A stretch of DNA of 39,456 nt, taken from a virus. The DNA is taken from the UHGV virus genome UHGV-1356089, one strand, 5' to 3'. Below, piece by piece: positions 946 to 2,520 of this stretch (position 1 is its first letter; every line of letters begins with the position of its first letter). A program made the translations under genes and the position numbers. The notes below the pieces were generated by a model. The model made no database searches, had not been told where the DNA came from, and saw nothing but the letters and a program-made list of their open reading frames with translations.

Positions 946-1431
946 TTATCTGATGTTACTGCTACTGTTGCATGTTACCGCGTTTCCAAATCCTGAATTG
1001 CAGTTTGTATATGTGTCAACGCGTGTTGGGTAAGGTTGAGTTATAACAGGCTGGCGCGCTTTTTGCTCGATCGCTTGCATTGTGTTTACAGCCTGATAAT
1101 TCAATAAAGCCTGCTGGAATGCTTGGCTTTGTGCTATTTGTTGGGCTTGTTCTTGGCTTTGTAATTGAACATAAAGATTCTGAAGCTCAAGTCTTGCCTG
1201 TGCGTCACTTATCTTGCCTTCATCGACACCTTGCCCGAGCATCTTTGCAGCAAGGACATACAGCTTAGGTGTTGGTGCTGATGCCATGCGTGAGTCGTTC
1301 TTCACACTGGCATCAAGGCAATTAGCCATATCGCTAAGCTTTTGATAGCGTTGTTCGCAACTTGCTTGATAGTCACTTACTTTTGCGCACCCAGCCAGCA
1401 GAAGCGGGATAATTAACAGTGATTTTTTCAT
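946..1431 (-). CDS. Predicted lipoprotein (signal peptide with lipobox LLAGC, Q-rich body); accessory gene
   Basis: N-terminus MKKSLLIIPLLLAGC when started at the ATG at 1431; AAGGAGAG RBS about 8 nt upstream; ORF-track ORF 946..1482 trimmed to this start. Confidence 0.6.
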   Translation of the reverse strand: MKKSLLIIPLLLAGCAKVSDYQASCEQRYQKLSDMANCLDASVKNDSRMASAPTPKLYVLAAKMLGQGVDEGKISDAQARLELQNLYVQLQSQEQAQQIAQSQAFQQALLNYQAVNTMQAIEQKARQPVITQPYPTRVDTYTNCNSGFGNAVTCNSSSNIR

Positions 1432-1465
1432 ATAATTAACTCTCCTTAGTTTTGCGCAGGATACC

Positions 1466-1831
1466 ATGAAAAAAGTTAACATTGGAAACGTACCAAAGAT
1501 GCTCGTACCGCTCTTTGAGAGCGGTACGGTTGTGTTTTGCAGAGACTTTCCAGAATGGCAACGCCTGCATCAAAAACTTGGCGTGGACGTGCAGGACTCG
1601 GATGCCAACGGAGCGTCTCATACAATGAGCAGCGAGAATGGTGTTTTGCATGTGATAGGTGTGTTCAATGGCAAACTATCTACTATTGCCCATGAGTGCG
1701 CTCACATGGCATTCGATATCTGCTCAAGGGTAGGTGTTGATGTTGAACCAGGAAGAGCCAACGAGACTTACTGCTACTTAATGAGCAGGCTTGTTGAGTT
1801 CTGCGAGAGACATATCAAAAAGCCGGAGTGA
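1466..1831 (+). CDS. Hypothetical protein with HExxH motif (possible small zinc metallopeptidase-like protein)
   Basis: 121-aa ORF with AGGA 5 nt upstream of the ATG; HECAH at residues 76-80 (nt 1691-1705); no competing long ORF on the minus strand. Confidence 0.45.
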   Translation: MKKVNIGNVPKMLVPLFESGTVVFCRDFPEWQRLHQKLGVDVQDSDANGASHTMSSENGVLHVIGVFNGKLSTIAHECAHMAFDICSRVGVDVEPGRANETYCYLMSRLVEFCERHIKKPE

Positions 1832-1844
1832 CCCGGCTTGATTA

Positions 1845-2024
1845 TTACTTTTTGCTGTCTGGAGTTCGCTTATCCAATACCCAGCCATGACCTGGCTTTG
1901 TTGTTGGCGGAAGCCTTTCGTTGTCCTTGACGGTGGCAAAATTGTCTTTCTTACCGCCGCGCGGGCCAACTTCTTGGTATATTCCGCCGTTTTTTCCTGT
2001 GTTTTCACCTGGTTTTTTCGCCAT
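1845..2024 (-). CDS. Small basic hypothetical protein (59 aa)
   Basis: ORF-track ORF trimmed to the internal ATG at 2024 (MAKKPGEN...) which has a GAGGT RBS 7 nt upstream; Lys/Gly/Pro-rich. Confidence 0.45.
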   Translation of the reverse strand: MAKKPGENTGKNGGIYQEVGPRGGKKDNFATVKDNERLPPTTKPGHGWVLDKRTPDSKK

Positions 2025-2115
2025 GATATACCTCAACATACACCCGTTATTGGGCGATTAAATATTGATCTCATTTTATGAGTAGTCAATATGGTCCAAA
2101 AAAGGCAAAAATTAA

Positions 2116-2137
2116 CCCGCCATCAGGTGGGTTTTTT
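2116..2137 (+). terminator. Rho-independent terminator-like hairpin (CCCGCC-ATCA-GGTGGG then T6); the reverse complement is also followed by a T-rich run
   Basis: 6-bp stem with one G-U pair, 4-nt loop, TTTTTT; overlaps the mnt stop codon. Confidence 0.5.
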
Positions 2138-2374
2138 GTACAAATCCTTCAGCGTATCAAACACCATCTTCTTAACAAGTTCAGACTGCTCATCAGCGAT
2201 GCGTTCCGCATCGTCTCGATAGCCTGAAATTTTGGATGGCTTTGATACAGCATCAGTCACTATCTGAACTAATTCAGAATTAAGAGAGCGGCCATTGGAT
2301 TTGGCTCGCTGTTTTAGTTTTTCCTTTAATTCGTAAGGTAGCCGCAGATTAAATTGCGGGTCATCTCTTCCCAT
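2123..2374 (-). CDS. mnt: Mnt repressor (ribbon-helix-helix, Arc/Mnt family)
   Basis: 83 aa; MGRDDPQFNLRLPYELKEKLK...ADEQSELVKKMVFDTLKDLYKKPT closely matches P22 Mnt as I remember it. Confidence 0.8.
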   Translation of the reverse strand: MGRDDPQFNLRLPYELKEKLKQRAKSNGRSLNSELVQIVTDAVSKPSKISGYRDDAERIADEQSELVKKMVFDTLKDLYKKPT

Positions 2375-2437
2375 TCTTGATGCCTCGCTTTTGTGAGTGG
2401 ATCGGCATCTTATTATCTGCTGGTTGCATCCTCAATA

Positions 2438-2452
2438 AGACCACAGTGGTCT
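2438..2452. promoter_or_regulatory. Candidate Mnt operator: perfect 15-bp palindrome AGACCAC-A-GTGGTCT
   Basis: Perfect inverted repeat in the 146-bp gap between mnt (minus) and the tailspike gene (plus); resembles the GTCCAC/GTGGAC-type symmetry of the P22 mnt operator. Confidence 0.5.
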
Positions 2453-2520
2453 CTTTGTTTGATTAATAATGCATCACCGTAGCCATGCTGCGGCGATTCC
2501 TTGTATCTGGAGCAAATTAA

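What the first reader, a model, noticed from the sequence alone, without database searches (positions are those of the whole stretch)
1466..1831. Small HExxH-motif ORF lying antisense within a minus-strand gene block
This is the only plus-strand ORF in a run of minus-strand genes (lipoprotein, small basic protein, mnt) and ends facing the 59-aa gene. At 121 aa it is short for a canonical metallopeptidase, so the HECAH at residues 76-80 may instead mark an ImmA/IrrE-like or anti-sigma-like zinc site. If the minus genes are co-transcribed from Pmnt, that transcript would be antisense to this gene.
Basis: inference. Interest (0 to 1): 0.5.

Follow-up and report, generated by a model that had tools for sequence, protein, structure and literature searches.

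The report
Small phage zinc-protease-like gene hkcC
The ORF is a real, strongly conserved accessory gene of P22-like phages, long listed as hkcC with "function unknown"; it encodes a minimal protein with the signature of a zinc metallopeptidase, and its target has not been identified.

Summary
The ORF at 1466..1831(+) is real. It is the hkcC gene of phage HK620, and the same gene sits, often unannotated, in P22 (99% aa identity). In 81 copies there are 38 DNA alleles but only 6 proteins. 26 of 31 variable sites fall at third codon positions, and pN/pS is 0.03-0.08. It belongs to a large family of stand-alone ~120-aa proteins with no Pfam model (phrog_1365; 524 clusters at 50% identity). Across 135 diverse members H76, E77 and H80 are invariant and E100 and Y104 are at least 90% conserved. 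That gives HExxH, 19 residues, then E, which is thermolysin's spacing. The AlphaFold model (pLDDT 88) has the zincin order of strands and helices. No member matches ImmA/IrrE (Pfam M78), there is no anti-sigma Cys motif, and SprT-like matches are weak and below threshold. The antisense scenario is unlikely. Terminators lie after mnt and after the 59-aa gene, and hkcC is on the sense strand of the late operon (gene 16 to tailspike). New here: hkcC and the 59-aa YjzC-family gene often travel as a convergent two-gene cassette, also inside siphovirus tail operons, but each also occurs alone. Relatives occur in virulent N4-like and T7-like phages. My best reading is a late-expressed cytoplasmic zinc peptidase with an unknown target. 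Interest is moderate.

The parts
1466..1831 (+). hkcC coding sequence (121 aa plus stop): stand-alone zincin-like protein of family phrog_1365
   Evidence: 99% identical to HK620 hkcC and the P22 copy. Purifying selection.
1458..1461 (+). Shine-Dalgarno-like AGGA, 4 nt upstream of the ATG
   Evidence: Read from the sequence. Diverged homologues also have GGAGAGG or GAGG just before their ATG.
1691..1705 (+). Codons for H76-E77-C78-A79-H80 (HExxH: two zinc ligands plus the catalytic base) on predicted helix 71-88
   Evidence: cat gag tgc gct cac. Invariant in A1 and A2. Helix from the model.
1760..1777 (+). Codons for N99-E100-T-Y-C-Y104: candidate third zinc ligand E100 and conserved Tyr at the start of predicted helix 100-116
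   Evidence: E100 and Y104 are at least 90% conserved in 135 sequences. The spacing H80 to E100 equals thermolysin's H146 to E166, as aligned.
1820..1839 (.). Bidirectional terminator hairpin shared by hkcC and the convergent 59-aa gene
   Evidence: -12.1 and -12.6 kcal/mol. Annotated as a terminator in P22 and HK620. Retained in diverged cassettes.
1845..2024 (-). orf59a (59 aa, YjzC family), frequent convergent partner of hkcC
   Evidence: Pairing statistics.
2061..2089 (-). Sigma-70 promoter-like site (TTGACT-17-AATATT) upstream of orf59a
   Evidence: This is a consensus match only.
2104..2133 (.). Hairpin with T-runs just downstream of mnt (called tMNT in HK620), separating mnt from orf59a
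1466..1496 (-). Stretch equivalent to the promoter annotated PsieA in P22. It lies inside the first 10 codons of hkcC and presumably drives the divergent lipoprotein gene here.
   Evidence: P22-pbi annotation (L001 2528-2558), with hkcC at L001 2528-2890. Homology to P22 begins at window 1438. Promoter function in this window is inferred.
946..1431 (-). Divergent lipoprotein gene (161 aa, lipobox LLAGC) in the slot of P22 sieA / HK620 hkcB. It is a neighbour, not shown to be functionally linked.
   Evidence: phrog_6067 aligns to residues 18-178 of the 178-aa ORF. Mosaic left flank.

Best explanation
hkcC is a genuine accessory gene of the 'ant moron' region of P22-like phages. It encodes a minimal (~120 aa), soluble, stand-alone zincin-type metallopeptidase.

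Proposed active site: H76 and H80 on the active-site helix and E100 on the following helix bind one zinc ion. E77 acts as the catalytic base, and Y104 probably helps to hold the substrate or the transition state.

Proposed expression: the gene lies on the sense strand of the late operon, between gene 16 and the tailspike gene, and has no recognisable promoter of its own. It is therefore most likely made late in lytic growth from the antiterminated late transcript.

Proposed role: it cleaves a specific cytoplasmic protein, either a host factor such as an immune or stress protein, or a prophage-encoded one. It is dispensable for virion assembly.

Shown here: the gene is real; the HExxH...E...Y site is conserved; the predicted secondary-structure order is zincin-like; the strand and terminator layout; the distribution in temperate and virulent phages.

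Inferred: zinc binding, catalysis, late timing, and the kind of substrate.
For: - Coding and under purifying selection: 38 DNA alleles give 6 proteins, 26 of 31 variable sites are at codon position 3, and pN/pS is 0.03-0.08.
- Large family of uniformly small proteins: 524 representatives. In 135 diverse members G49, H76, E77 and H80 are invariant, and F67, G90, E100 and Y104 are at least 90% conserved. Invariance of E77, which is not needed for metal binding alone, argues for retained catalysis.
- Thermolysin-like neutral protease aligns HExxH, the NE motif and LVEF with identical spacing, though weakly (E=0.1). The family profile hits myroilysin at E=0.008 and astacins at 0.1-0.2.
- The AF2 model has pLDDT 88 with the order b-b-a-b-b-a(HExxH)-a(E), as in zincins.
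- 24 phage proteins in BFVD share the fold at E<=1e-3. One of them is labelled SprT-like family protein, and another at E=2.6e-3 is labelled Metalloprotease.
- Layout: the gene is co-directional with gene 16 and the tailspike gene, and no plus-strand promoter-like site was found in 850-2600. [quoted passage not shown]
- Homologues in siphovirus prophages are likewise sense within the tail operon. The 39%-identical subfamily lies between the lysis genes and terminase.
- Homologues occur in virulent N4-like and T7-like phages, so the role is not tied to lysogeny.
Against: - No experimental data on expression, zinc binding or activity were found; the literature calls the gene 'unknown function'.
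- All sequence links to known peptidase families are below significance or below Pfam thresholds.
- I could not inspect model coordinates, so I have not verified that E100 faces H76 and H80.
- The target is unknown. None of the 268 anti-defence proteins in the EVADES text is described as a protease, so the anti-defence idea has no direct phage precedent in that catalogue.
- Plus-strand terminator-like hairpins (1503-1529, 1820-1839, 2114-2133) mean expression depends on antitermination, which is assumed rather than shown.
Confidence: 0.55

Rival explanations
1. HkcC and the convergent 59-aa YjzC-family protein Orf59a form a functional two-gene module. Orf59a would be expressed from the prophage as a moron with its own promoter and terminator. 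The late-expressed protease HkcC would cleave or neutralise it, or act together with it, for example as self-immunity against the prophage's own exclusion factor.
For: - A convergent pair with a 20-42 nt gap and a shared hairpin is present in 73 of 84 close copies and in 5 of 7 copies at 55-95% identity.
- It is also present in a Pasteurellaceae genome where HkcC is only 45% identical and Orf59a 64% identical, and in Morganella P22-like prophages.
- The same cassette sits in an entirely different place, between the tail tube/chaperone genes and the tape-measure gene of siphovirus prophages in Klebsiella oxytoca and Rosenbergiella.
- Orf59a has a promoter-like site and terminators on both sides.
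Against: - The link is not obligatory. 11 of 84 near-identical hkcC copies have other DNA in place of orf59a, and L093 and L103 lack it.
- The 39-43% subfamily and the homologues in virulent phages have no Orf59a next to them.
- Orf59a occurs alone in S. bongori prophages and in metagenome contigs.
- Two small adjacent genes can be co-inherited without interacting.
- No interaction test could be run.
Confidence: 0.15
2. HkcC is a nucleic-acid-associated protease of the SprT/Spartan/ArdC/IrrE type. It would remove or cleave DNA-bound proteins, such as crosslinked proteins, restriction components or DNA-bound regulators, during phage DNA metabolism.
For: - 21 of 135 family members give weak Pfam SprT-like (PF10263) matches, best E=1e-4. 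For P0076 the match covers the HExxH helix and the following segment.
- Some structural and sequence relatives are labelled 'SprT-like family protein' by their depositors.
- Longer family members carry Lys/Arg-rich charged C-terminal tails that could bind nucleic acid.
- ArdC is a plasmid anti-restriction protein with a gluzincin domain (HExxH plus Glu helix plus Tyr) structurally close to Spartan and IrrE (PMC7213743).
Against: - The window protein itself has no Pfam hit, and all SprT-like matches are below the gathering score.
- hhalign of the family profile against E. coli SprT/YggI gave probability 3.9%.
- Spartan uses a third His, whereas this family has Glu.
- The window protein has no basic tail or DNA-binding domain. 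It ends ...ERHIKKPE.
Confidence: 0.15
3. This is the first reader's idea: an ImmA/IrrE-like anti-repressor protease that cleaves a phage repressor (Mnt or C2-type) to control the lysis-lysogeny switch, or an anti-sigma-like zinc protein.
For: - It has HExxH plus a downstream Glu, as in the M78 family.
- It lies in the immI region near mnt.
- Very weak Foldseek hits to phage proteins labelled IrrE, E=0.03-0.04.
Against: - None of 135 members matched Peptidase_M78.
- The gene is separated from mnt by orf59a and two terminators.
- It is kept in HK620, where mnt is only a remnant, and in the Rosenbergiella tail operon and the virulent-phage stretches examined, which show no mnt or repressor gene. 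In the Klebsiella oxytoca locus Arc-family genes lie about 5.5 kb away, not adjacent.
- No ZAS HxxxCxxC motif is present, and C78 is not conserved.
Confidence: 0.05
4. The zincin fold is retained but the protein works without catalysis, as a zinc-stabilised binder or inhibitor of a host protein.
For: Many small phage counter-defence proteins act by binding; the EVADES text mentions no protease. The ArdC E229A mutant still promoted conjugation (PMC7213743).
Against: The catalytic base E77 is invariant in 135 sequences that are 24-78% identical to the window protein, together with Y104. This is not expected if only metal binding mattered.
Confidence: 0.08
5. The ORF is spurious: a chance open frame opposite real minus-strand genes or regulatory DNA (PsieA region, terminator).
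For: Several P22 GenBank records leave it unannotated and mark only a promoter and a terminator there.
Against: Codon-position bias of variation and pN/pS of 0.03-0.08. A family of 524 clusters with invariant motif residues. A confident fold prediction. A Shine-Dalgarno sequence kept in diverged copies.
Confidence: 0.01

Closest known systems
HK620 hkcC / P22 hkcC (phrog_1365)
   Same: It is the same gene: 99% amino-acid identity, the same position between gene 16 and the tailspike gene, and the same convergent 59-aa neighbour and terminator.
   Different: The left neighbour differs. Here it is a lipoprotein gene instead of sieA (P22) or hkcB (HK620). This window also has mnt but no arc or ant. 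The published function is 'unknown'.
Thermolysin-type gluzincins (MEROPS M4; clan MA(E))
   Same: HExxH followed by a Glu exactly 20 residues after the second His, in an N-E context. The weak alignment also matches LVEF. The predicted order is active-site helix followed by a 'glutamate helix'.
   Different: It is about 120 aa against about 316 aa, with no C-terminal helical domain. The match has E=0.1 and is not significant. There is no signal peptide or propeptide, so the protein is presumably cytoplasmic.
Minigluzincins (proabylysin/projannalysin) as minimal soluble zincin scaffolds
   Same: A stand-alone zincin domain of about 100-120 residues with HExxH and a third ligand on the next helix. 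The comparison rests on my own knowledge of that family.
SprT-like / Spartan / ArdC C-terminal metalloprotease domains
   Same: Small HExxH domains on mobile elements. There are weak Pfam SprT-like matches for 21 of 135 members. ArdC is a gluzincin with a Glu helix and a conserved Tyr.
   Different: All matches are below threshold. hhalign to E. coli SprT gave probability 3.9%. Spartan's third ligand is His. HkcC has no zinc-ribbon or ssDNA-binding domain.
ImmA/IrrE (Peptidase_M78)
   Same: An HExxH...E metalloprotease idea in a phage immunity context.
   Different: No profile match in any of 135 members. There is no adjacent cognate HTH repressor, and the family is present in virulent phages.

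Membership tests
Zincin / gluzincin metallopeptidases (clan MA) | HExxH motif on an alpha-helix (two His zinc ligands plus catalytic Glu) | tested here: met
   H76, E77 and H80 are invariant in 21 close and 135 diverse homologues. They lie in predicted helix 71-88.
Zincin / gluzincin metallopeptidases (clan MA) | Third zinc ligand Glu on the next helix ('glutamate helix'), about 18-25 or more residues downstream | tested here: met
   E100 is at least 90% conserved, starts predicted helix 100-116, and has a spacing identical to thermolysin's in the alignment. Its spatial proximity to the two His was not checked because no coordinates were available.
Zincin / gluzincin metallopeptidases (clan MA) | Zincin fold: N-terminal mixed beta-sheet with a backing helix before the active-site helix, recognisable by structure comparison | tested here: inconclusive
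Zincin / gluzincin metallopeptidases (clan MA) | Zinc binding and peptide-bond hydrolysis | not testable with these tools
   Needs purified protein.
ImmA/IrrE (Pfam PF06114, MEROPS M78) | Match to the family profile | tested here: not met
   No match for any of 135 members at E<=0.1, and none for the window protein at E<=1.
ImmA/IrrE (Pfam PF06114, MEROPS M78) | Encoded next to its cognate HTH/XRE repressor substrate | tested here: not met
   The neighbours are a lipoprotein gene and orf59a. Mnt (RHH) is two terminators away. Other contexts lack any repressor.
SprT-like (Pfam PF10263) | Match to the family profile above the gathering score | tested here: not met
   The window protein has no hit. 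21 of 135 members give sub-threshold hits, best E=1e-4; for example P0076 scores 15.7 bits against a cut-off of 25.6. hhalign against E. coli SprT gave probability 3.9%.
SprT-like (Pfam PF10263) | Third zinc ligand His (HExxH...H, as in Spartan) and often a zinc-ribbon or DNA-binding part | tested here: not met
   The conserved downstream residue is Glu. There is no extra domain in the 121 aa. Spartan's third His is described in PMC7213743.
Zinc-binding anti-sigma factors (ZAS) | HxxxCxxC motif | tested here: not met
   The motif is absent. C78 is replaced by L, A, I and other residues across the family.
Known anti-phage defence systems (PADLOC-DB 2.0) | Match to any defence-protein model | tested here: not met
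   No hits for HkcC, its ST64T relative, Orf59a or the lipoprotein at E<=0.1.
phrog_1365 (HkcC family, function unknown) | Full-length match to the family profile | tested here: met
   E=1e-39, residues 1-121 against profile positions 3-120 of 127. ST64T Orf-129 and mEp021 gp49 match the same family.

The most novel reading that the evidence does not exclude
HkcC is a phage-encoded protease made late in infection that destroys a specific immune or exclusion protein. The target would be either a host sensor triggered by late phage proteins, or the prophage's own moron product Orf59a, with which it often travels as a convergent cassette. That would make it a proteolytic counter-defence or self-immunity enzyme sitting unnoticed in the immI region of the model phage P22.
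Probability: 0.2. Interest if true: 0.7.

Novelty: new member of a known kind. Interest (0 to 1): 0.36.

Why it matters
P22 and HK620 are model phages. Their immI / 'ant moron' region has been dissected for decades, yet hkcC is still listed as 'unknown' and is not even annotated in several P22 records.

Recognising it as a conserved minimal zincin gives a concrete and cheap set of experiments: point mutants at H76, E77 and E100, zinc content, and a substrate search. The family has hundreds of members in temperate and virulent phages and no Pfam model.

If the substrate turns out to be a host immune protein or the co-travelling YjzC-family protein, it would add proteolysis to the known repertoire of phage counter-defence or self-immunity mechanisms. 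If not, the result is still a better annotation of a widespread accessory gene: it is present in 131 of 5,426 complete E. coli genomes.

Tried and rejected
- Pfam, NCBIfam and PADLOC scans of the window protein gave nothing meaningful. The only hits were chance lantibiotic matches around 'HEC'.
- hhalign of the family profile against E. coli SprT (YggI) gave probability 3.9%, so direct SprT membership is rejected.
- The search for related loci with the 135-sequence alignment failed because no stretch was conserved enough. The 21-sequence alignment returned only 98-99% identical IMG/VR copies. The GTDB scan gave 11 diverse loci.
- Domain fusions gave no clue. Longer members only add low-complexity charged tails and no Pfam domain.
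- The strong hairpin inside the ORF (1503-1529, -20.6 kcal/mol) was considered as a conserved attenuator. I rejected it as a conserved element because most near-identical alleles carry a mismatch and diverged homologues that keep the PLFESG peptide use codons that break it.
- I checked whether hkcC is the P22 'pid' ORFan moron. It is not: pid lies between orf25 and orf80.
- I looked for transcriptome evidence. BTP1/D23580 RNA-seq is not applicable because BTP1 lacks the immI region, and no P22 or HK620 strand-specific data were found.
- Literature searches for a phage HExxH anti-defence protease found none.
- A paralogue elsewhere in the window was sought by tblastn and none was found.

Full report
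**What is there**

The window is a P22-like phage or prophage genome. It opens in the 3' part of a gene-16 (DNA-transfer protein) homologue that ends at 855 (phrog_770).

It then carries, in order:
- a minus-strand lipoprotein gene at 946..1431, whose true start is M18 of the 178-aa ORF, with lipobox LLAGC (phrog_6067);
- the plus-strand ORF of the finding at 1466..1831;
- a minus-strand 59-aa gene at 1845..2024;
- minus-strand mnt at 2123..2374, which matches the Pfam Arc and Repressor_Mnt domains;
- the plus-strand tailspike-position gene, starting at 2521.

There is no arc or ant. The ORF is 121 aa, starts with ATG and has AGGA four bases upstream. It reads HECAH at residues 76-80, nt 1691-1705.

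**Identity of the gene**

The protein is 99% identical to HK620 HkcC, which is annotated 'unknown'. It is also 99% identical to an intact ORF at 13861-14223 of P22. Several P22 records leave that ORF unannotated and mark only 'PsieA' and a terminator there, and one phage record mislabels it as a GNAT acetyltransferase.

[quoted passage not shown] The UAB_Phi20 genome paper tabulates hkcC as unknown (PMC4837284).

The gene is in phrog_1365, a family of unknown function (E=1e-39). It has no Pfam, NCBIfam or PADLOC match. It occurs in 131 of 5,426 complete E. coli genomes and is always annotated 'hypothetical protein' in the records listed. One strain, 04-00955, is 100% identical over the gene.

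**Is it a real gene?**

Yes. The evidence is:
- 81 copies (window plus 80 IMG/VR loci) comprise 38 DNA alleles but only 6 protein variants.
- 26 of 31 variable sites are third positions of this frame, and pN/pS against the window allele is 0.03-0.08.
- Diverged homologues keep a Shine-Dalgarno sequence before their ATG.
- A profile search of 1.84 billion representatives found 524 clusters with E<=1e-3, nearly all 105-140 aa and stand-alone.

**The motif**

HExxH is present in 170 of 177 collected homologues. Six of the seven exceptions are frameshifted, truncated or chimeric. The seventh, P0145, is full-length and reads HKAAH.

In an alignment of 135 members that are 24-78% identical to the window protein, G49, H76, E77 and H80 are invariant. 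F67, G90, E100 and Y104 are at least 90% conserved.

The site is therefore HExxH, then 19 residues, then E, with a Tyr one helical turn later. This is a gluzincin-type arrangement. The ArdC paper describes that pattern for the group: HExxH on the active-site helix, an (E,H)xx(A,F,T,S,G) motif on the next 'glutamate helix', and a conserved Tyr (PMC7213743).

A weak phmmer alignment to a thermolysin-like neutral protease (1npc, E=0.1) lines up HExxH, N-E and LVEF with exactly the same spacing. The family profile hits myroilysin at E=0.008 and astacins at 0.1-0.2. All of these are sub-significant, but they all point to the zincin superfamily.

Because E77 is not a metal ligand, its invariance argues that catalysis, and not just metal binding, is preserved.

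**Structure**

AlphaFold2 with 21 homologues gives mean pLDDT 88 and pTM 0.83. The elements are E11-13, E21-25, H28-37, E49-56, E59-66, H71-88 (which carries HExxH) and H100-116 (which starts at E100). This is the zincin order: sheet with backing helix, then active-site helix, then glutamate helix.

Against predicted viral structures there are 24 matches at E<=1e-3. They are uncharacterised proteins of T7-like, N4-like and other phages. One of them is labelled 'SprT-like family protein' by its depositor, and another at E=2.6e-3 is labelled 'Metalloprotease'. Proteins labelled IrrE appear only at E about 0.03. I could not inspect the model coordinates.

**Testing the named families**

- SprT-like: 21 of 135 members give sub-threshold matches (best E=1e-4). 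The window protein gives none, and hhalign of the family profile to E. coli SprT/YggI gave probability 3.9%.
- Anti-sigma ZAS motif: absent, and C78 is not conserved.
- Defence systems: no PADLOC match.

The family is therefore best described as an unclassified zincin-like family. It is not a member of any of these.

**Transcription layout**

- A hairpin with T-runs follows mnt at 2104-2133. HK620 annotates the equivalent as tMNT.
- A promoter-like site (TTGACT-17-AATATT, 2089-2061, minus strand) precedes the 59-aa gene.
- A bidirectional hairpin at 1820-1839 lies exactly at the 3' end of hkcC. It folds at -12.6 kcal/mol followed by UUUUU on the minus strand, and at -12.1 kcal/mol on the plus strand. 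P22 and HK620 annotate it as a terminator.
- The promoter annotated as PsieA in P22 corresponds to window 1466-1496, within the first ten codons of hkcC, and points away from the gene.

Minus-strand transcripts should therefore cover hkcC only marginally.

Conversely, hkcC is on the same strand as gene 16 and the tailspike gene. The scan found no plus-strand promoter-like site in 850-2600. The epsilon34 paper places the ant moron inside the late operon and states that PLate-initiated polymerase transcribes through it into the tailspike gene. I infer that hkcC is expressed from the antiterminated late transcript. This is inference, not observation.

**Genomic contexts elsewhere**

- The flanks of hkcC are highly mosaic. 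There are 11 different left flanks and 12 different right flanks among 81 loci, while the gene itself stays 98-99% identical.
- A 78%-identical copy sits in a P22-like prophage next to a ClpP-like gene.
- Copies at 61-63% identity sit inside siphovirus tail operons, between the tail tube/chaperone genes and the tape-measure gene, in Klebsiella oxytoca and Rosenbergiella. They are sense to that operon.
- A subfamily at about 39% identity (ST64T Orf-129, phage L Orf129, epsilon34 gene 70, mEp021 gp49) lies between the lysis cassette and small terminase.
- More distant members are in virulent N4-like (phCDa, KP8) and T7-like (Kurepalu-1, Lolek) phages.

In the temperate-phage examples examined the gene is sense to late genes. 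Its presence in virulent phages means the role belongs to lytic growth rather than to lysogeny.

**A recurring partner**

The 59-aa gene is a YjzC-family protein. It gives a weak PF14168 match, UniRef names some relatives 'YjzC family protein', and the family is very conserved. It is convergent to hkcC with a 20-42 nt gap and the hairpin between them in the following places:
- 73 of 84 close copies;
- 5 of 7 copies at 55-95% identity;
- a Pasteurellaceae genome (HkcC 45% identical, Orf59a 64% identical);
- Morganella P22-like prophages;
- both siphovirus contexts.

This shows the two genes move as a cassette. The link is not obligatory:
- 11 near-identical hkcC copies have other DNA in place of orf59a.
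- The distant subfamily and the homologues in virulent phages lack it.
- Orf59a occurs alone in S. bongori prophages and in metagenome contigs.

A functional link, such as the protease acting on the moron product, is possible but unproven.

**Most likely mechanism**

HkcC is most likely a small cytoplasmic zinc peptidase produced late in infection that cleaves a specific protein. Zn would be bound by H76, H80 and E100, with E77 as the base and Y104 assisting.

- The distribution is that of an accessory gene. [quoted passage not shown]
- The most plausible target class is a host or prophage-encoded factor that would interfere with late development.
- There is no direct phage precedent in the EVADES catalogue text, which does not mention any protease.
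- The closest functional analogue on a mobile element is the plasmid protein ArdC. Its protease-site mutant still supported the anti-restriction phenotype, which is a caution against assuming that catalysis is what matters.

**Verdict**

The specific family guesses and the antisense-transcription idea are not supported.

The gene is already known by name, but its family is uncharacterised. I file it as a new member of a known kind (a zincin-like metallopeptidase family) of moderate interest. It is raised somewhat by the model-phage setting, the clear experiments it suggests and the hkcC-orf59a cassette.

Noticed in passing
window 946..1431 (-) and 1438-1496: A lipoprotein gene (161 aa, lipobox LLAGC, phrog_6067) occupies the slot of P22 sieA / HK620 hkcB. 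Homology to P22 resumes at 1438, just upstream of this gene's start, so the region annotated PsieA in P22 (inside the first codons of hkcC) is kept while the cargo gene behind it is swapped. There are 11 different left flanks among 81 loci, and one relative carries a ClpP-like gene there (L093 5349-5885).
   Followed up: partly
window 1845..2024 (-), with 2061-2089 and 2104-2133: orf59a is a highly conserved YjzC-family protein; G6, G14, E18, G20, P21, R22, G23, T31 and P39 are invariant in 39 sequences. It has a promoter-like site and hairpin terminators on both sides, which is a textbook moron. Its function is unknown. It often travels with hkcC but also occurs alone in S. bongori prophages and in metagenome contigs.
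   Followed up: partly
window 1503..1529 (+): A 12-bp perfect-stem hairpin followed by UUGUGUUUUG lies inside hkcC codons 13-25 (-20.6 kcal/mol, z -4.0). It looks like an intrinsic terminator. The window allele is the most perfect version: 60 of 81 copies carry a mismatch, and diverged homologues encoding the same PLFESG peptide do not keep it. It is probably incidental or lineage-specific.
   Followed up: yes
window 2123..2520: mnt is present without arc or ant, as in ST160/SE1-type phages, so Mnt here has no antirepressor gene to control. What it regulates in this arrangement is unclear; it may be transcription entering the tailspike gene.
   Followed up: no
L090 6001-6563; L092 6001-6556: The hkcC-orf59a cassette is inserted inside the tail-gene operon of siphovirus prophages (Klebsiella oxytoca, Rosenbergiella), between the tail tube/chaperone genes and the tape-measure gene. 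In one variant a truncated Rha-like gene lies nearby.
   Followed up: partly
P22 records AF527608, BK000583, AB426868; phage 34 KR296688: hkcC is intact but unannotated in several reference P22 records. In one Salmonella phage record it is labelled 'GNAT family acetyltransferase', which the sequence does not support.
   Followed up: yes
proteins P0076, P0084, P0152, P0170 (family members of 173-189 aa): Longer members of the family add only Lys/Arg/Glu-rich low-complexity C-terminal tails with no Pfam domain. These may be nucleic-acid-binding or disordered.
   Followed up: partly
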